This document shows positions 3,412 to 54,462 of a DNA stretch of 64,000 nucleotides, one piece after another; position 1 is the first letter of the stretch; each line of letters starts with the position of its first letter. The notes under the pieces were generated by a model that was not told where the DNA came from, made no database searches, and saw nothing but the letters and a program-made list of their open reading frames with translations. The stretch lies in IMG/VR virus record IMGVR_UViG_3300045988_113168; one strand, given 5' to 3'. Position numbers and translations under genes: made by a program. The DNA comes from a virus.

Positions 3412-3439
3412 AATTTTCTTCCTTTCAATTTATTTGGAT

Positions 3440-3477
3440 AAAATAAAAAGAGCAAGGTAAATCAGTTAACCTTGCTC
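3440..3477 (-). terminator. rho-independent terminator
   Basis: minus-sense GAGCAAGG-loop-CCTTGCTC followed by TTTTTATTTT; stop codon of upstream gene sits in the loop. Confidence 0.7.
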
Positions 3478-5700: not shown

Positions 5701-5712
5701 CGGTACACCTCC

Positions 5713-6213
5713 TTACTCAGAGTAGGAAGCGTATGTATCATAGTCGATGGTCTTACGCTTGCGGGTCGAGCGGTCTTTTGCCATATAGTTGTCCAACATC
5801 GTCATATTCTCCTCATGGATGTCTTTCACAAGAGCACGAATGCTCGTGCGCTCGTTAGCAGGGGAGAATACCTGTAAACTTGTAGGAAGGTCCTGTGCGC
5901 TAAATGCTTTCAACTTCCCAAACTCACGCTTAAAATGTTGCTCCAACATCAAATGCGCTAACATATCAATCTCATCGAATGTGAGATCTGAATTAAACTC
6001 TTCTAGTTCTGAATCGTAATCATCGAAACTAAAATCCTCTTCCGGTTCAATGTTTCTGGTAATCACAGAAAGTGACTCCATCAAATAACTTTTTGCACGG
6101 TCATGTACAAGATCTCGCACTTCATTCTCGGTTAAGTCGAAATACTGAAAGAAATTACTATCAGTCTCAACTAACTCGTAGAACTTATCATATACATCCG
6201 AAAATGCGGTCAC
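5713..6213 (-). CDS. hypothetical structural-module protein
   Basis: 166 aa, GTG start after GGAGGG. Confidence 0.6.
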   Translation of the reverse strand: MTAFSDVYDKFYELVETDSNFFQYFDLTENEVRDLVHDRAKSYLMESLSVITRNIEPEEDFSFDDYDSELEEFNSDLTFDEIDMLAHLMLEQHFKREFGKLKAFSAQDLPTSLQVFSPANERTSIRALVKDIHEENMTMLDNYMAKDRSTRKRKTIDYDTYASYSE

Positions 6214-6997: not shown

Positions 6998-7171
6998 TTA
7001 CTGCAGAACAATCTTAGCAACGCGCTCGATATGATCAATGCTATAACCGAAGGTAAAGTCCTTGACCATCAGATGAATCTTCTCGTTATTGTTGTCGTGA
7101 TCCTCGTAAGTATGAGTCTCACCCTTCATGTCAAGGCGACCGATCTTGCCCGCGATACCATAAATTCTCTT
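6998..7171 (-). CDS. major capsid protein, exon 2 (C-terminal 57 aa)
   Basis: open frame KRIYGIAGKIGRLDMKGETHTYEDHDNNNEKIHLMVKDFTFGYSIDHIERVAKIVLQ* with no start codon or SD; continues exon 1 (..GSLLIPD) in frame after intron removal. Confidence 0.7.
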   Translation of the reverse strand, partial: KRIYGIAGKIGRLDMKGETHTYEDHDNNNEKIHLMVKDFTFGYSIDHIERVAKIVLQ

Positions 7172-8758
7172 CTGTTATTTTTAAGAAAAATGTTTATCTA
7201 AAATTGATTCAATGTTATCAAAATCCGTGTAGGGAATCCTGATAAGCTTAATGCCGTTATTTTGGCAATATTCGGTTTTAATGTTGTCATTCCGTTTCTG
7301 TGTCTCAAATTTATACTTGACACGTTCAGCAGATTCGCCGTCTCCAAACTTTACTGGCTCAAAATGTTGTTCTCCATCGTATTCGATGCAAGTGTTTTTG
7401 TCCTTGACGTAAAAATCAAATGGTAATGGACGAATATTCCTACAATCATCAAACTTAAATTCACGAGTGTAGTTTATTCCGTTGTCATCAAAATACTTTG
7501 CAATACGTAAAGCGCCATGCGATAGGTTGCATTTTGGGCAACCTCTTCCTGCTAAAACAGAACCAACAAGAGTGTGCCACTCATAACCACATTTTTTGCA
7601 TCGAAAATTCGCATGAGATGACATATCTTTATAACCATTTATGTATTCAATACGATCATTCGTTTTTGCAATTCTTTCAATAATTTCTGCCTCTGAGACA
7701 CGAGCCTTTCCAGCACATTTTGGGCAACCAGAATTTCTGTTATTAAGTATCGTATCAGGAATTGCAGTCCAATGATAACCGCAAACATCACATGCAAAGT
7801 CCACTTTTACGGCAATGCGAACGTATTTTGAAAGAACGCGGATAGTAGGAAACCGCTCGTGCATTTCTTTCAAAAACTCATCTTCTGTGCGTCTATTTGC
7901 AGCACGCCGATAACACTCCATACACCCATGACCTTCAAGCAAAGTGTGTGGAATGCCGTCCCACTCGTATCCGTCAATTTTACACTTACAGCGAACACGA
8001 GAATCGTTTTTCTCATACTCCGAAAGTAATTCGATGTTTGGATTTACTTTAAAAAGTTCTTCTTTAAATTGAGTAGGAGACTTTCGGTTAGACTTCCCTC
8101 GCTTTGAAGATGCACAAATTTGACACCCATGCCCTTCAAAAAGAATTCTGGCTTGAACTTCTCTAATATCTCCACATACTGTGCATTTTCTAAGAATTGG
8201 TTTCCTTGAGCCTTTATACTCAGAAAGCAACACAATAGTCGGATTTAATTCAAACACTTTCTTTTTAAACTCTTCGTTGGTTATTTTCGAACCCATTCTA
8301 CACACCTCCTTTCTTGCAAAATAAAAGCCAGATACTCTACACAGCATCTGGTTGAATCAAAATATTAGATAAACACTATAATCGGACGCTACTCCGTTCT
8401 TGTTGCATATAGCAACCTCGTACTCTCATACGAGCAAAGACTATATCTTCACCCAGTAAAACTGGGGCACACCACTTCGGATGCCAGACACTTGCATCCT
8501 AACCGCTCCCACGCGGATAGTCGTTGAACCTTCTCCTTTTCGGAGCTTGGCTGCTGATTGCCCATTATTTTTAATGTTTAGGTTTTAACCATGCATCATC
8601 TACAATTTTCTTTCTACTTTCGCAACCATCCATCTAGGTATATTTCATCCTTCTGTTTTGGTAATTGTAGTTTTAGGGTTTTCCAGCAATTCAATGTGTA
8701 TTTGTTATCGTGACTTACATCACGACTGGACTATATTACGTAAATTTACATAAATTTA
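7172..8758 (-). mobile_element. group I intron (IA-like) carrying a homing endonuclease ORF, inserted in the capsid gene
   Basis: 5' splice after U (..CCGGAU|UAAAUU). P1 can form GGAUUA/UAGUCC with a U.G wobble at the splice site. Core strands AACGACUAUCC and GUGAAGAUAUAGUCUUUGCUCG resemble P7/J8-7 of T4 td and Tetrahymena introns. Intron ends in G (..AACAG|AAGAGA). Confidence 0.75.
7181..8296 (-). CDS. intron-encoded homing endonuclease (4 zinc-ribbon repeats + Vsr/PD-(D/E)XK-like nuclease core)
   Basis: 371 aa from ATG after GAAAGGAGG. Four repeats of C-x2-C ... G-x-GC-x-x-C. C-terminus LPFDFYV ... CIEYDGEQHF ... IKLIRIPY. Confidence 0.7.
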   Translation of the reverse strand: MGSKITNEEFKKKVFELNPTIVLLSEYKGSRKPILRKCTVCGDIREVQARILFEGHGCQICASSKRGKSNRKSPTQFKEELFKVNPNIELLSEYEKNDSRVRCKCKIDGYEWDGIPHTLLEGHGCMECYRRAANRRTEDEFLKEMHERFPTIRVLSKYVRIAVKVDFACDVCGYHWTAIPDTILNNRNSGCPKCAGKARVSEAEIIERIAKTNDRIEYINGYKDMSSHANFRCKKCGYEWHTLVGSVLAGRGCPKCNLSHGALRIAKYFDDNGINYTREFKFDDCRNIRPLPFDFYVKDKNTCIEYDGEQHFEPVKFGDGESAERVKYKFETQKRNDNIKTEYCQNNGIKLIRIPYTDFDNIESILDKHFS

Positions 8759-9580
8759 ATCCGGGATCAGCAGGGAACCATCACCCAGCTTCTTGGCAGA
8801 GCTAATACCAGTAATAGCAACACCATCGTAAGTCTTAACCAGACCATAACGGTTAAACTCGTCCTTAGCTGCGTCAGACAGATACTCAGCGTAGCCGGTC
8901 ATACGACGCATCTTGGCACAATACTTCATCAGGCTGACAGTGAAGGGATTACCACCATCTGCGTACTCATTCAGATACAGAGCCAGAGCGTCCATATCCT
9001 GCATAGTGGGCTCCTTACCCTGTGCATCGATCTTCTGCTCGCCACCAGTGATAGCGTCATCAACCATGCTAAAGATGTCATAGAACATCTGGTTCTTCAG
9101 AGCCTCAGTCATAAAGGTGGTCAGAGTTGCCACACTCTTCCAAGCATTGCGTCTTACATCCACAAAGCTAAGATCAGCCTCGATCTGCTTATTACGCCAG
9201 ACGGGCTTAATGGTCTCGTAGTGCAGGTAAGACTTCGGCACGTTGCCGCCCTTAGCTGCATCATAAGCCTTCAGAGTGTTCTTAACAGTACGACCTGCCT
9301 CGTAATCATCAAACTCACCAACATTACCACGCTCAAACATGGAGTCCAGCAGCTCATCAGGTGCGCCATACAGCTCATCAGTCACGGTGCGGTTAACAAA
9401 CTGAGCAATCTCCTTGTTGGGGTCACCCTTGTCAATCAGCTCCTCAACATGAGCGCCAACAACCTCAGCAATCTCCTTATCCTCGGCATCCATAGCGCGA
9501 TTGTACTGAGTCTTCTCAGCAACTTCATAAACACGACCAGGCTGCTTCATCAGCTCGGCCACTTCAATATTCAGTGCCAT
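8759..9580 (-). CDS. major capsid protein, exon 1 (274 aa)
   Basis: position after scaffold/decoration genes and before a strong terminator; the TAA directly after ..LLIPD is the first intron codon. Confidence 0.65.
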
Positions 9581-10180: not shown

Positions 10181-11755
10181 TTACTTACCCAAATATTCCC
10201 GCCATGCGTCACGCTTGTTAGCGTTAGTGGTGTTATACTTGGTTTCATTCAAATTCAGCTTGATACTCTCAGGCTTATGTACCTCAGAAGTCTCAATATT
10301 CTTTTCAGCAGGCTTTGCATTCTTAGCGGCTTCAACACAGCGAGAAGCAATCACACCATTGATGCCAGCCTCATCCAGATTCTCAATCATACTTGCAAAT
10401 TCGCCCTCACCGGTCAGTTCAGCCTCAGTAATCATCTTGCTGGAAATAGCATACTGGCGCAGATTTTCCTTTTTCTGTGCAAGCTCGGCCTCCGCCTTTT
10501 CTGCAGCTGCCTTCTCCGCCTGTTCCTTGTACGGAGTCAGCTCCGCAATCTCATCCTTAGCAGACTGCAACTCTGTATTCAGGCTTGCGACAGTCTTGTT
10601 CAGCTCATCAATCTTGGTGTTGACCTGAGAAACAGAAACAGTCAGAGTAATATTCTGCGGCTCACCCAGAGAAACTTCATCACCCTCAACAGTATAAGGG
10701 AACATAATGTAATCCAACTCGTTCATGTAGCCCCACTTCTTGCACCAGATAGTGTGATCTTCAGGGAACATATCGGTCATGTAGTAATCAGAGCTAATCT
10801 TTGACACTGCATCTTCAAGCTTCATATACAGGTCACGACCGGTCAAACTGGAAGTCTCAGTGGTAGACTCCGGCTCTGGCTCACCAGCAGGCTCGGTGCT
10901 GGTTTCAGGCTCAGTCGGGGGAGGGGTTTCACCGCCTTCCTCAGAAGTCTGAACATCAGGCTCTGCCGGAGTGGTGGGCTCGGTGGTAGACTCAGTAGTG
11001 GTCTGTTCTGCCTGCTCAGTCTCGGTTTGATTCTCAACCTGTGCGGCCTGAGTCTCCTTGTCCTTATTCAGTTCCAAATTTTTTGCCTCCTTTTCATTAG
11101 ATTCTATATTTGAAATCTCTTTTGTGTCCTCGATATAGGCATTTGCCAATTCAAGACCAAAATCGGTTTCAGCGACTTCAAGCAGTTTAGAGCACTTATA
11201 TGCCGGTTCAACATTTGCACCAAGCAGACAATGTGCAGTAAACACGCCATCGTCAATAATTTTTGCCATGCGGCCACCCACGATTCCCTTATGAGCTTTT
11301 AGCACATCAATTTCCCAACTGGTATTTAATGTGCCACTCTCAATACGGCGCAGAATCGTCGCACAAGCTTTTGGATATCGCTTCCAGATCTTACAAGAGG
11401 CAACAATAAAGTCGGTATCGTCAATTTTCTCGATACCGACCGATTGAAAGCTACCGAACGCATCAGTGTCAAATTCGGCAGTCTTGTATTCATTGCCGTC
11501 AGCGTCTTTTCTGGTGACGACTTTCATATTGTGACCAGAAAAATCCAGTTCACCCTTTGGAGCTACGACCAACTTACCAACAAGCGGGTTGCCAACCAGT
11601 GTACTCATCCAACTTTCAATGGTTTCACGGTTCAAAGCAACCTGATTTCCATTTACTGAGAAATCACAAATGATAAACTTGGCAAGATAGTGGTCTGGAT
11701 GCTCCGTAATCTCAGAGCAACAGATGTTTCTACTATAGAAATACTCCTTACTCAT
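10181..11755 (-). CDS. putative prohead scaffold / protease-like protein
   Basis: 524 aa between portal and capsid genes; central acidic Thr/Glu/Pro-rich linker and C-terminal coiled coil (AELTPYKEQAEKAAAEKAEAELAQKKE). Confidence 0.45.
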   Translation of the reverse strand: MSKEYFYSRNICCSEITEHPDHYLAKFIICDFSVNGNQVALNRETIESWMSTLVGNPLVGKLVVAPKGELDFSGHNMKVVTRKDADGNEYKTAEFDTDAFGSFQSVGIEKIDDTDFIVASCKIWKRYPKACATILRRIESGTLNTSWEIDVLKAHKGIVGGRMAKIIDDGVFTAHCLLGANVEPAYKCSKLLEVAETDFGLELANAYIEDTKEISNIESNEKEAKNLELNKDKETQAAQVENQTETEQAEQTTTESTTEPTTPAEPDVQTSEEGGETPPPTEPETSTEPAGEPEPESTTETSSLTGRDLYMKLEDAVSKISSDYYMTDMFPEDHTIWCKKWGYMNELDYIMFPYTVEGDEVSLGEPQNITLTVSVSQVNTKIDELNKTVASLNTELQSAKDEIAELTPYKEQAEKAAAEKAEAELAQKKENLRQYAISSKMITEAELTGEGEFASMIENLDEAGINGVIASRCVEAAKNAKPAEKNIETSEVHKPESIKLNLNETKYNTTNANKRDAWREYLGK

Positions 11756-13409: not shown

Positions 13410-15260
13410 TTAGAAGTCAATATTAGAAATACAAATTGGCGGTGCAGTCATTACCTCCACCGCAGACTGGCGCACTTTATCCTTACGACGTAATTCATAT
13501 AGACGATGAGCAAGCAAGATCGCAACATAGAACCTATCATCGTGGATTTTGTTGGCAACATCGGGCGCTAAAGCATACGTTACAGTCGTGTTTTCAGAGT
13601 TTGTCGTTTTCTGAATACTTGTAATCTCGTTCTTCATCAAGTCGATGTTAACCCACGCAGTTTGTTCTTCTAAAGTAAGTTCATGCGTCTTCAAAATTTC
13701 TTGACCAGTTGATTTATCCACGCCGTCTACTACCTGAACGTAATCTCCGCCGTTATATTCAAGAGGGAAGTGAATGACGCCAAGATTCATCAACTCAATA
13801 AATTCCTCAACCATGGCAGTACGGAATTTACGAGGACTAATTAGACGTAGCTTATCAACAGCATCTGGGTAACGGGCATCATATCCTTCATATAATTCAT
13901 GATTTGCGTCGATAAAACCACGATGTTCCGCACCTGTTTTATCGGTCCAATTATTAAGCAAACCGTCCGCATATGTGGAAGTACCACCGCCGCCAGCGCC
14001 TTGGTCAATCATCAATCTATCAATGTACTCGTAATCAGGATTTTGACCATTGTAATGTAGAATCAACTCATGTAACTGCTCAAGCTGACGATTAGAATCG
14101 AGCTTGAATTTTTTCTCATTTGCAATATCAACCATGTTCACGCAGTTGATAATATCTCCACACATGCCATTTTCTGGATCGTTATAAATACGCATAACAC
14201 CAACAATAGAATTATCCATTGTGCGGGCAGGATCAAACGCAAGAATATACTGATAGTTCTTATCCCAATAAAGCTGTGGGATATACTTTCGCTCATTGCG
14301 ACGAACTGTGCCCCATTTGATAATCTGGTTTACGCCACCATCACGGCTTGGGCGATTATAATATTCACGCAACGCCTTCATTTTATTTGACTTTAGAGCG
14401 GCTTCCACTTTGTCTCTTGTCAACAAAGCCTTGTATGGTTTACCATTCATATAGACCTGAATTGCAACATCGCAAATCATGTCGCAAACAAAATAATCAC
14501 GGTCACCGGCGATCATACGTTTTGCAAAGTTTTTGTAATAACGATAGAATAGTTTATCCATTGTATCCTGACTCGAAGCATACACAAGTTGTGTAGGAAC
14601 CTTGCGAGGCTGAGTTTCAGGATTATAAGAATCATCCGTATCAGTCACGAAGTCAGTATTCTGAGTGGCAAAAGCTTCACAGACAACAATCAGTTCGTCA
14701 GAGCAAAACGCAGCCTCGTCAAAAAACACAAGAGTTGCACGACGGGATCGGTTGGAATCCGGGTTGGAGTTTAGCGTGTTAATGGAGCTACCGTTGTAAA
14801 ACTCAACAACATACCCGGCGGGATTATGACTAAAGCCACTCTTATTGGTTGCAGACTTTTTCGTTTCTTTCTCTGCAATATCTTGCAGACTACGGATAGA
14901 CGCAGCTGTTTTACCAACACGAGTGACAATTTCTTCGATTTTATTAAAAGTTTCCTTACTCTGATCACCAACGCTACTTACGATGTAAATAGCTTGGTTT
15001 TCATACAACATAGCCTTCAGTAGAATAAAAACAGAACCTACAAAAGACTTACCAAAATTTCGACTACACGCCCAAAGAACATGACTTGCATTCCAGCTTT
15101 GTTCCAGCATATATGCCTGAGCGTCAAATAGTTGGATACCCAATAAATCTCTGGCCGCAATAACAGGATTACGCCGATAGAACGCAATCGTTGCCGCATC
15201 ACACTCATAAATCTTACGTTTTACGGCTGTGATAATAGGCGCTCTTTGCTTCATTCTCAT
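13410..15260 (-). CDS. terL: terminase large subunit
   Basis: 616 aa; Walker A-like SRNFGKSF, Walker B LVFFDEAAF, C-terminal nuclease-size domain; followed by portal. Confidence 0.8.
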   Translation of the reverse strand: MRMKQRAPIITAVKRKIYECDAATIAFYRRNPVIAARDLLGIQLFDAQAYMLEQSWNASHVLWACSRNFGKSFVGSVFILLKAMLYENQAIYIVSSVGDQSKETFNKIEEIVTRVGKTAASIRSLQDIAEKETKKSATNKSGFSHNPAGYVVEFYNGSSINTLNSNPDSNRSRRATLVFFDEAAFCSDELIVVCEAFATQNTDFVTDTDDSYNPETQPRKVPTQLVYASSQDTMDKLFYRYYKNFAKRMIAGDRDYFVCDMICDVAIQVYMNGKPYKALLTRDKVEAALKSNKMKALREYYNRPSRDGGVNQIIKWGTVRRNERKYIPQLYWDKNYQYILAFDPARTMDNSIVGVMRIYNDPENGMCGDIINCVNMVDIANEKKFKLDSNRQLEQLHELILHYNGQNPDYEYIDRLMIDQGAGGGGTSTYADGLLNNWTDKTGAEHRGFIDANHELYEGYDARYPDAVDKLRLISPRKFRTAMVEEFIELMNLGVIHFPLEYNGGDYVQVVDGVDKSTGQEILKTHELTLEEQTAWVNIDLMKNEITSIQKTTNSENTTVTYALAPDVANKIHDDRFYVAILLAHRLYELRRKDKVRQSAVEVMTAPPICISNIDF

Positions 15261-16723: not shown

Positions 16724-16799
16724 TGGCACGCCCACTCCGATTCGGACAGAGAACAAATGGTTTTAGAGACCACTGCTTTACCAATTAAGCTACGGGCGC
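16724..16799 (-). tRNA. suppressor tRNA, anticodon CUA (reads UAG), tRNA-Trp-like body, CCA encoded
   Basis: GCGCCCG-UA-GCUU-AAUUGGUA-AAGC-A-GUGGU-CUCUAAA-ACCAU-UUGUU-CUCUG-UCCGAAU-CGGAG-UGGGCGU-G-CCA. The 7-nt loop has U33 and A37, so positions 34-36 = CUA. Confidence 0.75.
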
Positions 16800-16820
16800 A
16801 TAAATATATCAGCATACAGG

Positions 16821-16900
16821 TGGGTGCAGCGGTTGGATTTGAACCAACGAATACACGGCTTATGAGGCCGGTGCCGTAGACCTGACTGGGCAACGCTGCG
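16821..16900 (-). tRNA. tRNA-Met (CAU), possibly initiator-like
   Basis: cloverleaf with loop CUCAUAA, T-loop UUCAAAU, encoded CCA; C1 x A72 mismatch is reminiscent of bacterial initiator tRNA. Confidence 0.65.
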
Positions 16901-17008
16901 TCATATGGTGCCTAAGTGTCTCAAGAAATAGAAAGTCATGTGTACATCATGATTCTAAAACCCAGACTTCGGACTTGCTATATGTCGCGCTCATATAGCC
17001 ATTTTCTT

Positions 17009-17116
17009 CGAGCTTGACAGGATTCGAACCTGCGCTGTATCCACGAATAAGCAATCTCGCTTCGTGCAGATGTCTGCTACCATCCGCTACGTTCAACCTC
17101 TTCGCATTACAAGCTC
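17009..17116 (-). ncRNA. atypical 108-nt tRNA-like RNA
   Basis: perfect 7-bp acceptor GAGCUUG/CAAGCUC, Ser-like D-arm (GCG-AAGAGGUUGAA-CGU) and canonical T-arm GCAGG-UUCGAAU-CCUGU. Two hairpins replace a standard anticodon arm. Confidence 0.4.
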
Positions 17117-17183
17117 ACAATAAAACCTACCTTTTAGCCGGTGGTAGGGAACCGGTATAATATAGGCCCTCCGGGAGAAGGAC

Positions 17184-17275
17184 TGGCGCGGTCTCAGAGA
17201 TTCGAACTCTGGCATCGGATTTACCGACCTAACGGTGTTCAAGACCGTTCTCTTCAACCACTTGAGTAAGACCGC
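17184..17275 (-). tRNA. tRNA-Ser (UGA), class II, CCA encoded
   Basis: GCGGUCU acceptor, loop CUUGAAC, long variable arm, T-loop UUCGAAU. Confidence 0.75.
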
Positions 17276-17387
17276 ACAATAAAAACAAGCATCCATCAAG
17301 CCACCCGAGCTAGTTGAATTGTTCTCGTGTTGATAAAACGCTTGTTTTAAACTTTAATGGTCCGCACTTACGGTGGCGGAACACCAA

Positions 17388-17461
17388 TGCCAGAGGTCGG
17401 GTACGATCCGACAGTCTGCTGATTACAGGTCAGCTGCATTATCCATTTATGCTACCCTGGC
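17388..17461 (-). tRNA. tRNA-Thr (UGU) with unusual loops
   Basis: GCCAGGG acceptor, anticodon loop CCUGUAA (C33), T-loop AUCGUAC (A54/U58 swap). Confidence 0.6.
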
Positions 17462-17489
17462 AAATAACCCGTAGACACTAGCCTACGGG
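17461..17489 (-). terminator. hairpin + U-tract upstream of tRNA-Thr (terminator or processing site)
   Basis: minus-sense CCCGTAG-gctagtgt-CTACGGG then TTATTTG. Confidence 0.45.
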
Positions 17490-17584: not shown

Positions 17585-18580
17585 TTAATTCAAACGCACA
17601 ATATGCGTTTTACTCTCAATCAGCTTTCCATCCTTGTCCTGATAGACAACAATAAAACCCTCTCGCTGCGGAGTGGTTAGTTTACCGTCTGCATACTCCA
17701 TTTTTGAAGTATCACAACAACAGCCCTGCTCGTATAGATTGTACTTTCCAACAGAATAAGAGCCGACACGATGTACATGACTCATAACCAGCGAATCAAA
17801 ATCAAGTCCAATATCCTGAAAATAGCGTAGTGCTTTTTCGCTTGTTTTCAAAATTCCAGATGAGAATGCCATAGGATGACACAGAACAGTGCTTCCTATC
17901 TGGCTGTACCAACTGTCGTTGTAAATGATTTCAATATCTTCTGCACCAAACACCTCAATCAAAGGGTCATAATGAACCTTTGTATGAAGTTCCTTGTTAT
18001 AATGGTTAAATCCATCAACAAGAATCAATTCAAGTGCTGTCTTTGGCATCAAGGCAAGTAAATCCTCATCAATGTTCTTGGCAAGATAATTCTGAAAACG
18101 AATATCATGATTGCCGTAATTAACAACAACCTTCTTGGGTTGAAGCATTTCAATCAAGTCAATCAGATACTGTCTTGCCAACAAAATTTCATCCATTGGA
18201 CTTTGCCGATACACACGCGAAAAACGCGACAGGGCAGCGGCATCTACGCAATCTCCGTTTACCTGAAGAATATCAATCTTACCAGCGTACTCACTAAAAG
18301 TATCAATTGGCTTCTGAAATGGAATATGTAGGTCTGAAATGGACAGAATACAAGTACCTACATCTCTATTGGACAAGGATTCCTGATACTGCATACCCGC
18401 ACGGAATGCCTTAAAACGCTTGCGATATGCGCACTCACCAAAATTCTTGCCCAATTCATCGTTAAGCACTTTTGCTGCGCCATCCCAAGTCAATTCTCTA
18501 GCCAGAACAGCATTCCCGATTCTTACAAAGAAGTCATCGCTCGTTTCTTCTGGCCGTTTGTTATAGCAACCCATTGGCAT
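17585..18580 (-). CDS. calcineurin-like metallophosphoesterase
   Basis: 331 aa; ISDLHIP, NGDCVD, YGNHD, SHVH motifs. Confidence 0.75.
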   Translation of the reverse strand: MPMGCYNKRPEETSDDFFVRIGNAVLARELTWDGAAKVLNDELGKNFGECAYRKRFKAFRAGMQYQESLSNRDVGTCILSISDLHIPFQKPIDTFSEYAGKIDILQVNGDCVDAAALSRFSRVYRQSPMDEILLARQYLIDLIEMLQPKKVVVNYGNHDIRFQNYLAKNIDEDLLALMPKTALELILVDGFNHYNKELHTKVHYDPLIEVFGAEDIEIIYNDSWYSQIGSTVLCHPMAFSSGILKTSEKALRYFQDIGLDFDSLVMSHVHRVGSYSVGKYNLYEQGCCCDTSKMEYADGKLTTPQREGFIVVYQDKDGKLIESKTHIVRLN

Positions 18581-18768
18581 CAGGCGGGGTCGCCAAGCAG
18601 CTCATCAGAAGTGGAAATATTGATAGTGACACCCTCAATACCATCCCACTTTGCCAGAGCTTCCTTCAGATTAAAGACGTTCTCACCGTCCTTGGTAATT
18701 TCGGTGATGGTGCCCTCAACAGTATCAATAATAGCGTTCTTAAAAACAACACTCTTCTTAGTAACCAT
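18580..18768 (-). CDS. hypothetical protein
   Basis: 62 aa, SD AAGGGAGA. Confidence 0.55.
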   Translation of the reverse strand: MVTKKSVVFKNAIIDTVEGTITEITKDGENVFNLKEALAKWDGIEGVTINISTSDELLGDPA

Positions 18769-18794: not shown

Positions 18795-19508
18795 TCAAAA
18801 TTCCAGCATATCAGCCCACTGACTAATCCATCCTCGATGGTTCGTTGTCAGTTCGCAAATTGCAGTCCTATCATGTCCACGAAAATGTTCAAGATAAACT
18901 TCAAAGCCTGAGTTTTCAGGATGCTTGTATAGATCACACTGTCCTGCATGACCGATACAGATCACCTTACAGTTCGATTTTGCTCTCGTAAGAACCTTCT
19001 TTAGATCGGAATTGTACATATTCTGCGTTTCGTCGGTCAAAATTACCTTGTTATCGAAGTTTATTCCTCGCATATAGGTATGAGTTGCAGCTTGAATATA
19101 CGCACCATACTTCTCACTTTCAGGATTATCCTCACTCTGGATAACCCTATCAGGATTTACACCAATGGTTTTTAAAGCTTCATATAGAGGTTCCATATAC
19201 GGAGCACTTTTTTGCTCCTGAGTTCCCGGAAGATAGCCCTGCTTTTCCTCCTGAGTGGGAGATACAATATAGACAATACCATCATACAGACCGTATTGCA
19301 CAAGCAAATTCGCTACGCCTACAGCGATAGTGGTTTTGCCAGTACCAGCACGGGCATTGCAGAAAACAACATCAATATTTGGGTCCCAAATACTGTCACG
19401 ATACACCTTCTGCTTCTCATCGAGCTCCATTCCATAAAAACTTGAGTAAACATCCAAACTTTGCGGAATATCCTTCTTCTTACGCATTTCAGTCTTATCA
19501 GAAGCCAT
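18795..19508 (-). CDS. phoH: PhoH-like ATPase
   Basis: 237 aa; Walker A ARAGTGKTT, Walker B ILTDETQN. Confidence 0.75.
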   Translation of the reverse strand: MASDKTEMRKKKDIPQSLDVYSSFYGMELDEKQKVYRDSIWDPNIDVVFCNARAGTGKTTIAVGVANLLVQYGLYDGIVYIVSPTQEEKQGYLPGTQEQKSAPYMEPLYEALKTIGVNPDRVIQSEDNPESEKYGAYIQAATHTYMRGINFDNKVILTDETQNMYNSDLKKVLTRAKSNCKVICIGHAGQCDLYKHPENSGFEVYLEHFRGHDRTAICELTTNHRGWISQWADMLEF

Positions 19509-19522: not shown

Positions 19523-20146
19523 TTAATTGAACTCATCCACATCATCGCAAATCTTATCGACGATACCAAAATTGACCTGCTCATTAGCATCCAGATACCA
19601 ATCCTTGGCCTTATTCTTTGTCATAGTCTTCTTGTCAATGGCAGAATGAGCCATAATATACTCACGCATCTTCACAACCTGCTTCTCGTAGTAGTCCATA
19701 GCCATCTTAGACTGCTCAAAAGTACCCTGCGTACCTCCAGAGCCACTGTGAATCAGCGCAGTAGAATGAGGCAGAGCAAAGCGCTTCTGACCAGACAGCA
19801 ACATCACAAGAGCAGCGCTCATTGCAATACCTGCGTTAATCGTCCAAACAGGAGTCTTGCTCAGTGCAACAACATCAATGAAACTGAACATAGCGTCCAA
19901 CTCACCACCATAGCTGTAAATAAACAGTTTAATGGGCTTGCGCTGCTCAACAGGGGTATTCTTATCGATACGATTGTATTGCAGAATTTTACGTTCAATT
20001 TCAATCAGAGACTGGTCAATCTCAAAGTCGATAAAAAAGATACGCTCTTTCTCATCAACATAGAAATTCATCATCTCAGGAGAGGGGAGACCACCCTTGT
20101 TCATCAGTTCAGTGATCTCTTCGGGCAGCTGAATCTCAAAATCCAA
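19523..20146 (-). CDS. clpP: ClpP-like serine protease
   Basis: 207 aa, TTG start; GIAMSAALVMLLSG (Ser) and ALIHSGSGG (His) motifs. Confidence 0.7.
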   Translation of the reverse strand: MDFEIQLPEEITELMNKGGLPSPEMMNFYVDEKERIFFIDFEIDQSLIEIERKILQYNRIDKNTPVEQRKPIKLFIYSYGGELDAMFSFIDVVALSKTPVWTINAGIAMSAALVMLLSGQKRFALPHSTALIHSGSGGTQGTFEQSKMAMDYYEKQVVKMREYIMAHSAIDKKTMTKNKAKDWYLDANEQVNFGIVDKICDDVDEFN

Positions 20147-20352: not shown

Positions 20353-20499
20353 TAGGTAAAACACCCTTTCAAAATAAAATAGGTAGGAAGAAAACAAGCA
20401 TCCTCGCTCTCTCCCTACCATAACTTTCCGCACTGTGTTTTACTCTATATATGTAAAATTATAACGTATCTACGTTAAAATATTGCGCTTTTTCGCATT

Positions 20500-21249
20500 T
20501 CATAAATCAAACATTTTTCTATTTTGCACGGTTTTCTCAATATTTACGTTTTTAGCGCACTTACGACAGTATTTTTGTCTGCGTCCGGTGCGAGCAACCA
20601 TCTTTCCGCAACAATCACACTTGATGTACTCTTTCCCACAATACTGGCTCCACAGAATACCAGCATTCTCAAAATCGTCCACGAAAATCTCATGAGGAGA
20701 ATCCGGCTCCGCAATCAAAACATGGATGTTCAAGTTGTCAATCTTTTTCAAGCTGGCAAACCCAATAAAGCCAAGATTATGTAACTCACAAATCATCTCG
20801 TTCTGTTTTTTTTCATTCGCGGATACGTTTGCCATCCTGAAAATATCAGCCGTATCTTCCGTAATCCAGTAGTTGCATTTTTCATTAACTGCAATATGAT
20901 ATTTTGCCAGACACAGCATCGTAAACATCAAGCGTTGCATCTGCTTGCCCTCAAGTGCTTGAATCTTCTCTACCTCTGCTTTTGTAATGCACACACCATC
21001 AAGTTCCACCATAGGACGGCCTTTAGCAGAAGCGATTGCTTTATCAATCAGTTCTCTATCCAGAACCTTGTTGTACCCTTCAAAATGACGCAACATATAC
21101 TCGTTGAGCTTTTCTCTTACATCATCCTTTGAGTACCCTTTGTAAAAATAGTACTTCGCAACATAATGCAAAACATGCCCCGCCCTTTTCCAAGGTACAT
21201 CCTTTTCTAGCCACTCTTCAGCGTAAAGAACTTCATTCAATACAATCAT
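20500..21249 (-). CDS. hypothetical protein with C-terminal zinc ribbon
   Basis: 249 aa; second ATG is properly spaced from AAGGAGG; CDCCGK...CRKC. Confidence 0.6.
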   Translation of the reverse strand: MIVLNEVLYAEEWLEKDVPWKRAGHVLHYVAKYYFYKGYSKDDVREKLNEYMLRHFEGYNKVLDRELIDKAIASAKGRPMVELDGVCITKAEVEKIQALEGKQMQRLMFTMLCLAKYHIAVNEKCNYWITEDTADIFRMANVSANEKKQNEMICELHNLGFIGFASLKKIDNLNIHVLIAEPDSPHEIFVDDFENAGILWSQYCGKEYIKCDCCGKMVARTGRRQKYCRKCAKNVNIEKTVQNRKMFDL

Positions 21250-24016
21250 CCGCATCCTCCTTGCTATTCATGTTAATCAACACATCCTTGAAACGCTTGC
21301 CATCATATTCAATATCGCCATTCTCGTCCTGCACAAGAGAATGCACCATACCGTCATGGCGTTCCAATAAGCGTTTAATCAAAGTATCATGAAACAGTTC
21401 CCAGACGATTGCAATACTGGATGCATTCTTCTTACAAAGATCAAGCATAATATCGCAAAGCACATCGTCATTGGAACATTTATCGTGAAGATTACGGAAC
21501 ATGCTTTCCTGATATAGCGCAATTCGTTCCTTGCGGTCTGCGCTGGTTTCTTTATTATTGTTTCCGTTGCCAGAATGGATTGCGTTGCCACGAGCAAATC
21601 TCAAGTAATCCTTAAAAATAGAGCGAATACCATAGTATTGAGAATTAGTGTACTCAATGCCAGACTTGAGCGAGTCGTAATCAAACTTGCGCTTTATCTT
21701 GAGTTCTTCTTCAAAATCTTCCAGCTCGTCCTCAACAGTCCAGCATAGGCGGTTCATGGTACAAGAATTGATTCCGACCGGCATCCGATAGAGGTAATAC
21801 TGGATAACCATTTCATCCACATCGTCCTTGACGGTCTTTTGCATAATCTCATCCAGACCAGCAAACCCATCCCACTTGATGCGCTTGCGAGCTGCGGCCA
21901 CATACTGCTTGTAGTCTCGCATCTGAGAAGGATAAATATAACTCATAAAGTACGGCTTTCGATAAGCACAAATACGAGCCAAGAATTTTTTATCCTCGAT
22001 AGTATCTGGGTTATCACCCTCGCTTGGAACGCAAGCTTTGTTGTCATACCAATATTTTGGCATAGGTACGCAGGAAATTCCCTTTATGCGATCAATCGTG
22101 TCCTGTTGATATTTCTGGCCAGAAATAATACGATATGTAAGCTCTTTATATTCTCTACTTTCTGGCTCAAATTTACTCTGTACATCAAACATCGTTGTAA
22201 TACGATTAGTTACCTTGCCGATATCATCACCAAATCCATTGATATTAGAGTCAATGAAATCCTGCTCGGTTGGAATTTTCTTTTCACCTTTTTTCTGAGC
22301 ACAAAGAATTACAGTCTCATCCCTCCATCTATCAAGGAGGACTCTGTTATCTGTGCTAAAGATGAGATCGCCATCCCAGTCCATTCCGTCGAGTGCTGCA
22401 CATGTGTTATCAAACGCACTTACGATAGCTACAGTCTTCATGTAACGATACCAGTTCTTACATTCGTCACTCGAATTTAAATTTAAGCACCGAATATTCG
22501 CCATCTGACTCATAGGAGCTCTAAAACAAGCCACTCGCTTAACATCTCTATCATTCCAAAAACGGCTGTAAACCTCACCGGCCTTTAACAGTCCAGTGAC
22601 TTCCATTCCAAAGATGGATTGGCAAAGTGCGTATGGATCTCCGCTTGCTACTTGAAAATTCCCTCGTACCTTCACAACACCCGTCTTTGCCTGAGAGATT
22701 CGCTTTTTAATAAAGTACCGAATTCGATTCTGCACATACGGGTCGTTAATCATGTCCGGCTCAATCATGAGAGCCTTAATGTAATCATTCTCAAGAGAGT
22801 TGACATACCCTGCGTCATCTCGCATCCCGCTTCCACGCAAATACAGCAACGCATCACGCCAGTCGCCGCCCATGACACCTTTGATTTCATCCAGAGTCGG
22901 CTTGACCAGTTCTCTAATCTCGTCATTCGTAAGCTGATAGCTTTGAATGAATTGATAATTCAAATTGCGTTCTTCATCAAGTTCCAACTCGCAGGTTTTC
23001 GTTACAGAGAAGTGATAATGGTTTTCCTGACAATTTTCAAAGTAATCCTCACAATTATGGTAACTATCCCATAGCTTTAACATCGACCCTGTAAGAATCA
23101 CTTGAACACGATTAACATCCTTATAGTTCCCCCAAATGTCCTTCACCATATTCTTTTTCGCAATCTTCTTTGCGAACTCACGGAAAGGGAAGGGGAATAG
23201 CATACCTTTACAAAAAGCGTTCCGTACACAGAAACCAGATGCTGTGGATGGCAGCTTTAAATCTTCGCTCCACTGTTGAGCAAGGTCATAGCTAATGAGT
23301 CCAAAACCATCGCTAGCGCACAACTCACAATCATGTTCCATATCCTCTACCATCGTAGGCTCACCGGATGCTCCATCGTCCAGAACGATTACATGGTCTT
23401 TGAAATGAGTGAAACAATCGTCTACGACCAGCACACCGTCTGGATCAGTGACCGGAATGGATGCAGAGCAGGCGAGTGCCCGATATGCTTCCAGCTTTGC
23501 CGGAATAAACTCCATTCCCTTGTTACGGCCATTGTCGATTCGTTTGCGGATCTCATCAACAAGACGGTCGCTCACAAACACAATCGTACTATTCTTGACA
23601 CCACCGGTAGTTCCAACCAAACGACGATATGTAATCCCATTGATTTTGAACCCTTTAGGAGAACATGCCCGGCGGTAATCATTCTTCTTGTCTACCACCA
23701 GACACATATAATCCGGCTTGAACTGAACTGCATCCAACTCAGTATACAATCTCCGAATCTCCCGGCGGTTCTCTAAACAAGATTGTTCATTCCGTAACAT
23801 CTTGATTCTACGCTTGATGCTCCGTGCCTTAGACTCTGCATCCGTAACACCATTCAACTCGTCAATCCATCGTAGAACAGTGCTATCAGCTAACGAGATG
23901 ATCTCGTGGTTTCGTCTGGCTTCATCCAATGGTAGGGTTAAATCCCATTTCGCTTCAACTAGACGCTTCGTATGAATCTTAAAAACAAACTTCTGACAAG
24001 TTTGCTGTTTTGCCAT
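21233..24016 (-). CDS. putative single-subunit RNA polymerase (YonO / RdRP-like two-barrel family)
   Basis: 927 aa; ALDGMDWDGDLIFS contains the DxDGD metal-binding signature of two-barrel RNAPs and cellular RdRPs. It is preceded by VACFRAPMSQMANIR (the R.P element seen in RdRP alignments). Confidence 0.55.
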   Translation of the reverse strand: MAKQQTCQKFVFKIHTKRLVEAKWDLTLPLDEARRNHEIISLADSTVLRWIDELNGVTDAESKARSIKRRIKMLRNEQSCLENRREIRRLYTELDAVQFKPDYMCLVVDKKNDYRRACSPKGFKINGITYRRLVGTTGGVKNSTIVFVSDRLVDEIRKRIDNGRNKGMEFIPAKLEAYRALACSASIPVTDPDGVLVVDDCFTHFKDHVIVLDDGASGEPTMVEDMEHDCELCASDGFGLISYDLAQQWSEDLKLPSTASGFCVRNAFCKGMLFPFPFREFAKKIAKKNMVKDIWGNYKDVNRVQVILTGSMLKLWDSYHNCEDYFENCQENHYHFSVTKTCELELDEERNLNYQFIQSYQLTNDEIRELVKPTLDEIKGVMGGDWRDALLYLRGSGMRDDAGYVNSLENDYIKALMIEPDMINDPYVQNRIRYFIKKRISQAKTGVVKVRGNFQVASGDPYALCQSIFGMEVTGLLKAGEVYSRFWNDRDVKRVACFRAPMSQMANIRCLNLNSSDECKNWYRYMKTVAIVSAFDNTCAALDGMDWDGDLIFSTDNRVLLDRWRDETVILCAQKKGEKKIPTEQDFIDSNINGFGDDIGKVTNRITTMFDVQSKFEPESREYKELTYRIISGQKYQQDTIDRIKGISCVPMPKYWYDNKACVPSEGDNPDTIEDKKFLARICAYRKPYFMSYIYPSQMRDYKQYVAAARKRIKWDGFAGLDEIMQKTVKDDVDEMVIQYYLYRMPVGINSCTMNRLCWTVEDELEDFEEELKIKRKFDYDSLKSGIEYTNSQYYGIRSIFKDYLRFARGNAIHSGNGNNNKETSADRKERIALYQESMFRNLHDKCSNDDVLCDIMLDLCKKNASSIAIVWELFHDTLIKRLLERHDGMVHSLVQDENGDIEYDGKRFKDVLINMNSKEDADDCIE

Positions 24017-24046: not shown

Positions 24047-24068
24047 GTATCCTGTGATGTATAGCTAA
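24047..24068 (-). repeat. 22-nt motif copy I (minus sense TTAGCTATACATCACAGGATAC)
   Basis: 30 nt upstream of the RNAP-like gene start, just after a small hairpin + T-run. Confidence 0.8.
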
Positions 24069-28918: not shown

Positions 28919-28940
28919 GTATCCTGTATTGTATAGCTAT
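28919..28940 (-). repeat. 22-nt motif copy A (points leftward)
   Basis: GTATCCTGTATTGTATAGCTAT; forms an imperfect inverted pair with copy B 36 nt away. Confidence 0.8.
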
Positions 28941-28976: not shown

Positions 28977-28998
28977 ATAGCTACATAATACAGGATAC
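28977..28998 (+). repeat. 22-nt motif copy B (points rightward)
   Basis: ATAGCTACATAATACAGGATAC. Confidence 0.8.
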
Positions 28999-34202: not shown

Positions 34203-34231
34203 TTGACAAAATTATCGGTATCCTGTATTAT
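34203..34231 (+). promoter_or_regulatory. consensus sigma70 promoter overlapping reversed motif copy C
   Basis: TTGACA-17 nt-TATTAT; the spacer and -10 are part of GTATCCTGTATTATGTAGCTAA (34218-34239). Confidence 0.65.
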
Positions 34232-34239
34232 GTAGCTAA
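34218..34239 (-). repeat. 22-nt motif copy C (reverse orientation)
   Basis: GTATCCTGTATTATGTAGCTAA; inverted partner of copy D 38 nt away. Confidence 0.8.
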
Positions 34240-34277: not shown

Positions 34278-34298
34278 CAGCTATATAACACAGGATAC
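34278..34298 (+). repeat. 22-nt motif copy D
   Basis: CAGCTATATAACACAGGATAC, 17 nt before the start of gene 34316. Confidence 0.8.
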
Positions 34299-46834: not shown

Positions 46835-46935
46835 AAAGCCGGTATTGACATTCAGTGATGTTGTAAAACTTGCAAATGCTGAAGGATTGTCTTACGGAAA
46901 ATATTGCTTAAAGTATGGAATTTGAGGTGAATATA

Positions 46936-54454: not shown

Positions 54455-54462
54455 ATAGCTAT
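54441..54462 (-). repeat. 22-nt motif copy E (reverse orientation)
   Basis: GTATCCTGTATAATATAGCTAT; inverted partner is copy F, 1.47 kb away. Confidence 0.8.

What the first reader, a model, noticed from the sequence alone, without database searches (positions are those of the whole stretch)
21233..24016. 927-aa protein with DxDGD motif: candidate YonO/RdRP-like single-subunit RNA polymerase
ALDGMDWDGDLIFS matches the universally conserved DxDGD Mg-binding loop of two-barrel RNA polymerases. The same loop is found in the eukaryotic RNAi RdRP / SPbeta YonO lineage. An R-x-P element (FRAPMSQ) lies about 60 residues upstream, as in RdRP alignments I recall. No other polymerase-like gene is visible in the window. 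A non-canonical phage RNAP would imply phage-specific promoters.
Basis: partly seen in the sequence, partly recalled or inferred. Interest (0 to 1): 0.8.

Follow-up and report, generated by a model that had tools for sequence, protein, structure and literature searches.

The report
YonO-type phage RNA polymerase gene
This gene encodes a single-chain RNA polymerase of the already-known YonO type (a distant cousin of cellular RNA polymerases) in a large phage of gut bacteria, and in this branch it is always paired with a small zinc-ribbon protein that may be the enzyme's unidentified helper.

Summary
ORF 21233-24016 (-) encodes a 927-aa protein that passes Pfam RdRP (PF05183: 52 bits against a cutoff of 24). 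It aligns with SPbeta YonO (BLASTP 1e-24; profile-profile E 4e-41 over 661 columns). It keeps all eight residues invariant in two-barrel RNA polymerases: D236, R265, K270, R499, P501, D546, D548, D550. A confident AlphaFold model matches QDE-1 and RDR2 (Foldseek E about 1e-15, probability 1.0). The genome is a roughly 130-kb SPbeta-like temperate phage of gut Clostridia, and a YonK homologue, terminase and other late genes lie downstream. The gene is therefore a new member of a known, very large family (more than 4,000 homologues) and is most likely the phage's late-gene DNA-dependent RNA polymerase.

One result goes beyond the finding. In this clade YonO's C-terminal zinc ribbon is missing from the polymerase. 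It sits instead on a 249-aa protein whose gene overlaps the polymerase stop codon (159 of 159 loci with room downstream carry a partner homologue on the same strand; adjacent or overlapping in 158). This protein is a candidate accessory or initiation subunit.

A 21-nt motif repeated nine times, including directly upstream of the polymerase gene, is more likely an early promoter/operator than the polymerase's own promoter. The late promoter was not identified.

The parts
21233..24016 (-). YonO-like single-chain two-barrel RNA polymerase gene, 927 aa
   Evidence: ORF. Pfam PF05183 52.2 bits against cutoff 23.8. BLASTP to YonO 1e-24. hhalign to the YonO clade E 3.9e-41. AF2 model plus Foldseek to QDE-1/RDR2.
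23204..23311 (-). First (beta-like) barrel motif: D236-G ... R265 ... K270-G271 (fourth catalytic Asp plus the two basic residues)
   Evidence: Aligns with YonO TDGCG...VRLPWVKG and RDR2 SDGIG...IRYGGYKG. Invariant in A1 and A4. Spacing of 29 and 5 residues as in QDE-1 D709/R738/K743.
22514..22522 (-). R499-A-P501, the R-x-P element of the second (beta'-like) barrel
   Evidence: Aligns with YonO LRSP. Invariant. Corresponds to QDE-1 R962/P964.
22367..22381 (-). D546-W-D548-G-D550 catalytic Mg-binding aspartate triad
   Evidence: Aligns with YonO DNDGD and RDR2 DLDGD. Invariant. The YonO 3D>3N mutant is inactive (PMC5467207).
24025..24031 (-). Ribosome-binding site GGAGGTG of the polymerase gene
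   Evidence: Read from the sequence.
24047..24067 (-). Copy of the 21-nt repeated motif TAGCTA-N6-ACAGGATAC, ending 30 nt upstream of the polymerase ATG; candidate early promoter/operator controlling the polymerase-partner unit
   Evidence: 9 copies in the window against 0 expected. The same position is kept in 72 of 80 close relatives. Profile. The SPBRE/MrpR precedent at the yonP-yonO promoter is in PMC10516654.
20500..21255 (-). Partner ORF. The probable start is the second ATG at 21249 (249 aa), preceded by AAGGAGG inside the polymerase gene; it overlaps the polymerase 3' end by 17 nt. N-terminal helical / winged-helix-like part plus a C-terminal zinc ribbon
   Evidence: start context. Homologous to c-st CST177 (3e-22), to the PMBT24 downstream ORF (2e-13) and to BUCT082. 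Present downstream on the same strand in 80/80 and 79/79 loci, adjacent or overlapping in 80 and 78. AF2 pLDDT 89.
20557..20619 (-). Zinc ribbon of the partner (C213, C216, C230, C233; CxxCGK-x7-RRQKYCxxC), equivalent to the C-terminal ribbon fused to YonO
   Evidence: The four Cys are invariant. The partner HMM hits YonO 790-835 and D-1873 840-882. hhalign A2 against A3: probability 94.9, E 4.7e-8. 101 of 104 YonO-clade proteins carry the ribbon against 0 of 103 window-clade polymerases.
20372..20419 (-). Terminator-like hairpin (17 pairs) plus T-run closing the polymerase-partner unit
   Evidence: Nearly invariant in close relatives. Not general in distant relatives: 8 of 74 against 7 of 370 control windows.
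18580..18768 (-). YonK-family gene. In SPbeta the YonO-dependent late transcript starts upstream of yonK
   Evidence: PF09642 E 2.3e-9, 37.8 bits against cutoff 25. PMC5467207.
13410..20146 (-). Downstream co-oriented module, the presumed target of the polymerase: ClpP-like protease (19523-20146), PhoH (18795-19508), YonK, metallophosphoesterase (17585-18580), tRNA cluster, 411-aa ORF, large terminase (13410-15260). Further structural genes continue towards position 1
   Evidence: The same gene order is seen in PMBT24, BUCT082, L089 and L090.

Best explanation
The ORF encodes a catalytically competent YonO-type RNA polymerase: one chain that carries both double-psi beta-barrels of the two-barrel RNAP superfamily. 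It belongs to a roughly 130-kb SPbeta-like temperate phage or prophage of gut Clostridia; the nearest named relative is from Faecalibacterium.

Shown by analysis: family membership, all eight catalytic and invariant residues, the fold, SPbeta-like synteny, and the obligatory linkage to a zinc-ribbon partner gene.

[quoted passage not shown] The polymerase and the 249-aa partner are translated from one short transcription unit. That unit is headed by a repeated 21-nt promoter/operator-like motif and closed, in this lineage, by a terminator-like hairpin.

Inferred from the gene fusion/fission pattern: the partner binds the polymerase and supplies in trans the zinc ribbon that YonO carries at its own C-terminus. 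Its extra N-terminal domain, possibly a winged helix, is a candidate DNA-binding or initiation module.

The late promoter itself was not identified.
For: Family and active site:
- Pfam PF05183 scores above its cutoff.
- BLASTP to YonO gives 1e-24, with DWDGD aligned to DNDGD, FRAP to LRSP and VRNAFCKG to VRLPWVKG.
- hhalign to the YonO clade gives probability 100, E 3.9e-41, 661 columns.
- D236, R265, K270, R499, P501, D546, D548 and D550 are invariant in 30 close and 23 diverse family members. They match the eight invariant two-barrel residues defined in PMC2919709.
- The family profile hits RDR2 and QDE-1 by sequence, and the printed RDR2 alignments line up the motifs.

Fold: AF2 pLDDT 85.2, pTM 0.78. 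The 21 best PDB matches are all RDR2 or QDE-1 (E 6e-16 to 1.5e-11), followed by the phage two-barrel RNAP P74-26 gp62.

Function by homology: YonO is a processive DNA-dependent RNAP, essential for SPbeta, that transcribes the late operon from a start site upstream of yonK (PMC5467207).

Context:
- YonK homologue, ClpP, PhoH, metallophosphoesterase and terminase lie downstream on the same strand.
- Relatives carry YonK, YonJ, YonG, YonV and HU genes around the polymerase.
- Integrase-like and Ant-like genes are present in the window.

Partner:
- A homologue lies downstream on the same strand in 80/80 close and 79/79 diverse loci, adjacent or overlapping in 80 and 78.
- Its RBS lies inside the polymerase gene.
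- The ribbon is fused in 101 of 104 YonO-clade proteins and absent from 0 of 103 window-clade polymerases.
- Partner HMM and hhalign matches fall at the YonO C-terminus.
Against: - No biochemical or expression data exist for this protein. Template specificity (DNA or RNA) cannot be read from sequence, and the closest solved structures are RNA-dependent enzymes.
- Identity to YonO is only 25%.
- The late promoter was not found. The only strong repeated motif is absent from the late region and sits upstream of the polymerase and of early-looking units.
- There is almost no promoter space between the terminator-like hairpins and the following late genes, so how late transcription starts and passes these hairpins is unexplained.
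- The fused-ribbon similarity is short (about 45-75 residues: 20-30 bits, hhalign probability 95%).
- The partner's fold search gave no significant hit (best E 0.05), so a DNA-binding role is only a hint.
- No HU-like gene lies next to the polymerase in this window, unlike in most relatives.
Confidence: 0.78

Rival explanations
1. The protein is a true RNA-dependent RNA polymerase, as the Pfam name and the annotations of PMBT24 and TR-TP1 say. It would copy phage or host RNA (for example to make dsRNA or antisense RNA for regulation or counter-defence) rather than transcribe DNA.
For: The Pfam family is named RdRP. All top structural matches are RNA-dependent enzymes, RDR2 and QDE-1. Relatives are annotated 'RNA-dependent RNA polymerase'.
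Against: YonO, the only characterised bacterial or phage member, strongly prefers DNA templates (PMC5467207). The phage has a dsDNA genome with SPbeta-like synteny and a late module downstream. The annotations are transfers of the Pfam name, not tests. PDB entries 7y7r-7y7t show QDE-1 in complex with DNA templates.
Confidence: 0.08
2. The 21-nt motif TAGCTA-TAYAAT-ACAGGATAC is the promoter read by this polymerase (plus partner). The enzyme would then drive its own gene in a positive-feedback loop, together with many middle genes on both strands. Late genes would be reached by read-through of the hairpin at 20382-20419.
For: There are nine copies against zero expected, each oriented towards the downstream gene, often directly after terminator hairpins and with no consistent -35. 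Conservation extends 9 nt past the -10-like hexamer, as in T7-type promoters. Four of nine window copies have C at the position that would be the critical -7 T of a sigma-A promoter. One copy lies 30 nt upstream of the polymerase ATG and is kept in 72 of 80 relatives. YonO is little affected by pause signals.
Against: In SPbeta a repeated element with the same distribution (about ten early promoters, including that of yonP just upstream of yonO) is the operator of the master repressor MrpR, a tyrosine-recombinase-fold protein (PMC10516654). The window encodes three such proteins. The motif contains a good -10-like TAYAAT, and some copies have plausible -35 boxes. The motif is absent from the late region. 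YonO in SPbeta uses one late promoter only. A polymerase cannot start its own first expression.
Confidence: 0.2
3. The polymerase works alone, as single-chain YonO does. The downstream 249-aa protein would be an independent late-gene regulator or DNA-binding protein whose zinc ribbon resembles the YonO C-terminus by domain shuffling, without forming a complex.
For: YonO elongates without any partner in vitro. The shared segment is short. TR-TP1's downstream ORF has only the N-terminal half of the partner and no ribbon. 0305phi8-36 gp99 shows neither a ribbon nor a partner.
Against: A partner homologue is present downstream in all 159 loci examined that have room, adjacent or overlapping in 158, across 40-95% polymerase identity, with an internal RBS. 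The distribution of fused ribbon and separate partner is strictly complementary. Gene fusion of this kind is a classical indicator of physical interaction (established principle; inference here).
Confidence: 0.3
4. The gene is an inactive relic or serves a non-catalytic role.
For: None specific. Some relatives have interrupted genes (c-st, CB457P1) or a variant motif (BUCT082 DFDYD).
Against: The ORF is intact and all eight catalytic residues are invariant across thousands of homologues. The interruptions in relatives look like group I introns rather than decay.
Confidence: 0.02

Closest known systems
YonO of Bacillus subtilis prophage SPbeta (single-chain DNA-dependent RNA polymerase; Forrest et al. 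2017, PMC5467207)
   Same: Same family and same domain order along nearly the whole chain (window 121 to about 912 against YonO 132 to about 798; hhalign E 3.9e-41). Same eight active-site residues. Same kind of genome: large SPbeta-like temperate phage with a YonK homologue and late genes downstream. Likely the same job, late-gene transcription.
   Different: Only 25% identity. The N-terminal 120 residues are unrelated. The C-terminal zinc ribbon is not in the polymerase chain but on a separate, translationally coupled 249-aa protein with an extra domain of about 175 aa that YonO lacks. No HU-like gene and no DUF3800-VIII RNA motif next to it. The host is a gut clostridial lineage, not Bacillus.
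Clostridium phage c-st CST179/178/177, Enterocloster phages PMBT24 and CB457P1-type, Bacillus phage BUCT082 (uncharacterised homologues)
   Same: Same clade (28-38% identity over the full length) with the same polymerase-plus-partner arrangement. The c-st annotators had already noted N-terminal and 'C-ter only' YonO similarity.
   Different: The c-st and CB457P1 genes are interrupted at the DxD|GD codons by intron-like insertions; the window gene is uninterrupted. BUCT082 has DFDYD.
Eukaryotic cellular RdRPs QDE-1 (2j7n, 7y7p-t) and RDR2 (7w82, 7eu0, 7rqs)
   Same: Best structural matches: about 900 aligned columns, probability 1.0, TM 0.4-0.5. Same Pfam family. Same catalytic motifs.
   Different: 12-15% identity. 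Those enzymes copy RNA for gene silencing in eukaryotes, whereas this one sits in a dsDNA phage with a YonO-type context.
Other phage two-barrel single-chain RNAPs: Thermus phage P74-26/P23-45 gp62 (8f5m); crAss-like phage gp66
   Same: Same superfamily and the same logic of a minimal phage-encoded two-barrel RNAP. gp62 is a weak structural match (E 4e-5).
   Different: Much more distant. gp66 was not recovered at all in the PDB search. Different genome types and expression timing.
T7-type single-subunit RNA polymerases (Pol A family)
   Same: Functional analogy only: a phage-encoded, single-chain, processive RNAP for late genes.
   Different: Unrelated fold and family; no sequence or structural match.

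Membership tests
Pfam PF05183 (RdRP; cellular RdRPs plus YonO-like proteins) | Whole-protein score at or above the curated gathering score | tested here: met
   52.2 bits against 23.8, E 5.7e-14, residues 117-612 on profile positions 60-507 of 582.
Two-barrel RNA polymerase superfamily | The eight invariant residues (QDE-1 D709, R738, K743, R962, P964, D1007, D1009, D1011; PMC2919709) | tested here: met
   D236, R265, K270, R499, P501, D546, D548 and D550, with matching spacing (29, 5, 2, 45-47). Invariant in A1 and A4. Direct alignment to RDR2 motifs.
Two-barrel RNA polymerase superfamily | Fold with two double-psi beta-barrels forming the active site | tested here: met
   The AF2 model (pLDDT 85.2) matches QDE-1 and RDR2 full-length with probability 1.0. 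The barrels were not inspected individually because coordinates are not viewable; strands flank R265/K270, R499 and D546-550 in the DSSP string.
YonO-like phage RNAP | Significant full-length homology to YonO itself | tested here: met
   BLASTP 1e-24 over residues 121-611. hhalign probability 100, E 3.9e-41, 661 columns to the end of the catalytic chain.
YonO-like phage RNAP | Both barrels in a single polypeptide of about 100 kDa, without alpha/omega-like subunits | tested here: met
   927 aa with both motif sets in one ORF. No other RNAP subunit gene was found in the window.
YonO-like phage RNAP | C-terminal zinc ribbon within the polymerase chain (present in 101 of 104 YonO-clade proteins) | tested here: not met
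   0 of 103 window-clade polymerases have it. The ribbon is on the adjacent partner protein. This is a clade-level architectural difference, not a defining catalytic feature.
YonO-like phage RNAP | Encoded in an SPbeta-like phage, upstream of and co-oriented with yonK and the late operon | tested here: met
   YonK homologue at 18580-18768, terminase and other late genes downstream. YonK, YonJ, YonG, YonV and HU genes in relatives.
YonO-like phage RNAP | DNA-dependent, processive RNA synthesis abolished by mutating the Asp triad | not testable with these tools
   Known only for YonO (PMC5467207).
YonO-like phage RNAP | Required for transcription of phage late genes from a dedicated promoter | not testable with these tools
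   No expression data. No late promoter could be identified by sequence.
   No such Pfam, PHROGs, PDB or Foldseek match. The only phmmer PDB hits were chance PDZ matches at E >= 0.04.

The most novel reading that the evidence does not exclude
In this very large clade the YonO-type enzyme is not single-subunit but a minimal two-subunit RNA polymerase. The 249-aa partner would dock on the catalytic chain through the zinc ribbon that is fused in YonO, and would use its extra winged-helix-like domain to recognise the late promoter. It would then be a sigma/TFB-like initiation factor for the simplest known two-barrel RNAP. That would answer the question left open in 2017 of how YonO-type enzymes find promoters, and would point to YonO's own C-terminal ribbon as part of its initiation apparatus.
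Probability: 0.3. Interest if true: 0.65.

Novelty: new member of a known kind. Interest (0 to 1): 0.4.

Why it matters
YonO-type enzymes are the smallest known relatives of cellular RNA polymerases and are used as a model for the ancestral enzyme. This window shows that the family is not a Bacillus curiosity. It is very common in SPbeta-like phages and prophages of gut Clostridia: more than 4,000 homologues, hundreds of IMG/VR contigs of about 130 kb, and many genera. The practical gain is an annotation correction, because these genes are mostly unnamed or labelled 'RNA-dependent RNA polymerase'. The conceptual gain is the strictly linked partner protein that carries the zinc ribbon fused in YonO. 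It gives a concrete, testable candidate for the unknown initiation or promoter-recognition factor of this polymerase class.

Tried and rejected
- **phmmer against PDB:** the single sequence gave only chance PDZ and Rtt109 hits (E >= 0.04). The narrow family profile A1 gave nothing. Only the broad profile A4 reached RDR2 and QDE-1.
- **Megablast:** window 15-35 kb against the phage records found no match.
- **Fused partner-polymerase proteins:** the top 150 of 1,199 hits in the 1.84-billion-protein representative library were all standalone proteins of about 250 aa. The fusion signal appeared only when the YonO clade was sampled directly.
- **Partner fold:** no significant PDB match (best E 0.05). 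The winged-helix flavour of the top list is only a hint.
- **Late promoter:**
  - The sigma-70-type scan is at background level: 44 found against 39 expected.
  - Footprinting of the intergenic region after the partner gene was uninformative because the 80 IMG/VR relatives are too similar.
  - The 21-nt motif is absent from the late region and from distant relatives.
  - The SPbeta start site (B. subtilis coordinate 2225998) could not be mapped because that genome is not in the available collections.
- **ncRNA counterpart:** SPbeta and BUCT082 have the Rfam DUF3800-VIII motif upstream of yonK, and c-st has RAGATH-18. The window has none, even at E <= 1.
- **Terminator as a conserved module feature:** rejected. 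It is enriched but present in only 8 of 74 diverse loci.
- **TAG-to-sense recoding** (prompted by the CUA tRNA): no genes are rescued by reading TAG as sense.


Full report
**Observation**

The ORF is present exactly as described: 21233..24016 on the minus strand, ATG start, 927 aa, with a GGAGGTG ribosome-binding site 8 nt upstream. ALDGMDWDGDLIFS occupies residues 541-554 and FRAPMSQ residues 498-504. R499 lies 47 residues before D546, not about 60. The bare D.DGD pattern is only mildly unusual: two occurrences in six frames against 0.16 expected. The case therefore rests on family-level evidence.

**What it is**

- Pfam-A gives a single hit, PF05183 'RdRP', at 52.2 bits against a gathering score of 23.8 (E 5.7e-14, residues 117-612).
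- tblastn against phage records finds full-length relatives at 38% identity in Clostridium phage c-st and in Enterocloster phages (PMBT24 is annotated 'RNA-dependent RNA polymerase'), 28% in Bacillus phage BUCT082, and 25% over residues 121-611 in SPbeta yonO and its relatives.
- BLASTP against YonO gives 1e-24 and aligns DWDGD with DNDGD, FRAP with LRSP and VRNAFCKG with VRLPWVKG.
- A profile-profile comparison of the window clade with the YonO clade gives probability 100%, E 3.9e-41 over 661 columns. It runs from window residue 121 to about 912 and from YonO 132 to about 798.

The literature defines eight residues invariant in all two-barrel RNA polymerases: QDE-1 D709, R738, K743, R962, P964, D1007, D1009 and D1011 (PMC2919709). 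The window protein has D236, R265, K270, R499, P501, D546, D548 and D550 with matching spacing. All eight are invariant in 30 close homologues and in a 23-member alignment spanning the whole phage family. That broad profile reaches RDR2 and QDE-1 by sequence alone (E about 4e-5 to 1e-4), and the printed RDR2 alignments line up the DG, R...KG, DxDGD and D..K motifs.

**Structure**

An AlphaFold2 model built on 30 homologues is confident (mean pLDDT 85.2, pTM 0.78). Foldseek against the PDB returns 21 consecutive hits to RDR2 and QDE-1 (E 6e-16 to 1.5e-11, probability 1.0, about 900 aligned columns, TM 0.4-0.5). These are followed by the two-barrel RNAP gp62 of Thermus phage P74-26 (E 4e-5). Multi-subunit RNAP beta' chains appear only at E > 1. 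Against predicted viral structures, the best matches are proteins named RNA-dependent RNA polymerase from uncultured siphoviruses and podoviruses.

**Genome context**

- More than 4,000 homologues exist in the large protein collection. The closest named one (86% identity) is from Faecalibacterium prausnitzii.
- IMG/VR holds hundreds of relatives at 82-95% identity, many on contigs of about 125-140 kb.
- GTDB genomes hold relatives at 40-49% identity in Oscillospiraceae, Lachnospiraceae, Ruminococcus, Paenibacillus, Priestia, Lacrimispora and others.
- In the window, the genes downstream on the same strand are a ClpP-like protease, PhoH, a YonK-family protein (PF09642, E 2e-9), a metallophosphoesterase, four tRNAs, the large terminase and further structural genes.
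- Relatives show YonK, YonJ, YonG, YonV and HU genes around the polymerase.
- The window also encodes integrase-like and Ant-like proteins.

This is an SPbeta-like temperate phage. No other polymerase, sigma factor or HU gene was found among the remaining ORFs.

**Likely function**

YonO is experimentally a processive, strictly DNA-dependent RNA polymerase whose Asp triad is essential. It is induced with the prophage, is required for plaque formation, and transcribes the 37-gene late operon from a start site upstream of yonK. Its promoter, and any need for accessory factors, are unknown (PMC5467207). By homology and synteny, the window protein is most likely the late-gene RNA polymerase of its phage. 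This step is inferred, not shown.

**The partner protein**

The ORF that overlaps the polymerase stop codon (20500-21255) most probably starts at the second ATG, 21249. That start is preceded by AAGGAGG inside the polymerase gene and gives 249 aa. The ORF has no Pfam family and belongs to the unannotated phrog_30716.

Homology and linkage:
- It is homologous to the ORFs immediately downstream of the polymerase in c-st (CST177, 3e-22), PMBT24 (2e-13) and BUCT082.
- The c-st annotators had labelled CST177 'YonO homolog, C-ter only'.
- A partner homologue lies on the same strand downstream of the polymerase in 80 of 80 close IMG/VR loci, always overlapping the polymerase stop codon.
- The same holds in 79 of 79 diverse GTDB loci with room downstream; in 78 of them it is adjacent or overlapping.
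- The family has about 1,200 clusters at 50% identity.

Relation to YonO's C-terminus:
- Four cysteines (C213, C216, C230, C233) are invariant.
- A profile of the family matches only the extreme C-termini of YonO (residues 790-835) and of the D-1873 polymerase (840-882).
- hhalign of partner against the YonO clade gives probability 94.9%, E 4.7e-8 for partner 176-250 against YonO 762-836.
- The distribution is strictly complementary. 101 of 104 full-length YonO-clade proteins end in a CxxC...CxxC ribbon, and those polymerase genes are followed directly by an HU gene in the two loci examined. None of the 103 window-clade polymerases has the ribbon.

The partner's N-terminal part of about 175 residues has no YonO counterpart. 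Its AF2 model is confident (pLDDT 89), but Foldseek finds nothing significant. The top of the list is dominated by winged-helix DNA-binding domains at E 0.05-0.4.

I infer that the partner associates with the polymerase and supplies the ribbon in trans. A role in DNA binding or initiation is a hypothesis.

**Transcription signals**

A 21-nt motif, TAGCTA-TAYAAT-ACAGGATAC, occurs nine times in the window against zero expected. Each copy points towards the downstream gene. Two pairs are divergent (28.9 and 34.2 kb), several copies sit right after terminator hairpins, and there is no consistent -35. One copy ends 30 nt upstream of the polymerase ATG, and that position is kept in 72 of 80 close relatives. 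The motif is absent from the late region and from distant relatives.

In SPbeta a repeated element (SPBRE) with the same kind of distribution, including the promoter of yonP just upstream of yonO, is the operator of the master repressor MrpR, a protein with a tyrosine-recombinase fold (PMC10516654). The window encodes three recombinase-like proteins. I therefore favour an early promoter/operator that puts the polymerase under lysogeny control. The alternative, that the motif is the polymerase's own promoter, remains at about 20%.

A 17-pair hairpin with a T-run (20419-20382) closes the polymerase-partner unit. It is conserved in the lineage but not across the family. The late promoter was not identified. 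It also remains unexplained how late transcription starts in, or passes, the short gaps that follow the two terminator-like hairpins at 20.4 and 16.4 kb.

**Verdict**

The polymerase is a new member of a known kind. The added value lies in the clade-wide split architecture with a dedicated zinc-ribbon partner and in the candidate regulatory motif upstream of the gene.

Noticed in passing
window 24047-24067(-), 28919-28939(-), 28978-28998(+), 34218-34238(-), 34278-34298(+), 54441-54461(-), 55933-55953(+), 59748-59768(+), 63591-63611(+): 21-nt motif A-TAGCTA-TAYAAT-ACAGGATAC: nine copies against zero expected. It heads transcription units, including two divergent pairs and the polymerase gene. 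It is possibly the analogue of the SPbeta SPBRE operator of the MrpR repressor.
   Followed up: partly
window 16724-16799 (-), within the tRNA cluster 16724-17462; second tRNA cluster at 58309-59644 (+): The phage carries a tRNA with anticodon CUA (amber-suppressor type; ARAGORN labels it 'Pyl') among about 12-13 tRNAs. TAG is almost never used as a stop codon (1 of 67 long ORFs, against about 12% expected from out-of-frame triplets). No gene appears to need TAG read as sense.
   Followed up: partly
window 8417-8759 (-) and 7181-8347 (-): Group I intron (Rfam RF00028, 75 bits) followed by an HNH homing-endonuclease ORF (phrog_559, E 1e-88). Together they split a structural-region gene whose upstream part is ORF 8756-9580. 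Similar introns lie near the terminase genes of relatives L089-L091.
   Followed up: partly
L003 (phage c-st) 6671-6989; L004 (phage CB457P1) 1744-2276 and 2581-3053: In relatives the polymerase gene is interrupted exactly between the codons for D548 and G549 of the DxD|GD catalytic motif (insertions of 317 and 531 nt). In CB457P1 it is interrupted again at the conserved QQ..D..KG block. Two of the three insertions match the group I intron model below its cutoff (46.8 bits, E 3e-10; 25.4 bits, E 2.5e-4). This explains why PHROGs splits the family at residue 548 (phrog_25339 and phrog_35857) and why c-st annotates two genes.
   Followed up: partly
L001 (SPbeta) 7009-7074; L005 (BUCT082) 8632-8697; L003 (c-st) 10965-11025: The Rfam orphan motif DUF3800-VIII RNA lies about 260 nt upstream of yonK in SPbeta and BUCT082. 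It plausibly is the 'unannotated non-coding RNA' downstream of the YonO start site mentioned by Forrest et al. c-st has a RAGATH-18 RNA just upstream of its HU gene. These motifs may be leaders of YonO-dependent late transcripts.
   Followed up: no
window 56032-58242 (+): A 736-aa fusion of a P-loop kinase (AAA_33), a metallophosphoesterase and a T4 Rnl1-type RNA ligase sits directly upstream of the second tRNA cluster and is headed by a copy of the 21-nt motif. It looks like a tRNA-repair (PNK/ligase) module against anticodon nucleases.
   Followed up: no
window 191-1180 (-), 46915-47754 (+), 54971-55897 (+): Three tyrosine-recombinase/integrase-like proteins occur in one 64-kb stretch, and relatives L090 and L091 also have two near the polymerase. 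One or more may be DNA-binding repressors of the MrpR type rather than integrases.
   Followed up: no
L005 (Bacillus phage BUCT082) polymerase 3260-6034: This Spbetavirus carries the window-type polymerase (924 aa, with a separate partner) instead of YonO proper. Its catalytic loop reads DFDYD, with Tyr replacing the otherwise conserved Gly.
   Followed up: no
window, one of the 70 ORFs in alignment A5 (not located): A PemK/MazF-like toxin (PF02452, E 4e-19) is encoded somewhere among the small ORFs.
   Followed up: no
proteins P0397 and P0413 (YonO clade); P0008 (window clade): JGI names two YonO homologues 'ribosomal protein L37E', evidently because of the C-terminal zinc ribbon. P0008 is a 1358-aa relative covering 84% of the query at 88% identity, which suggests an insertion or fusion.
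   Followed up: no
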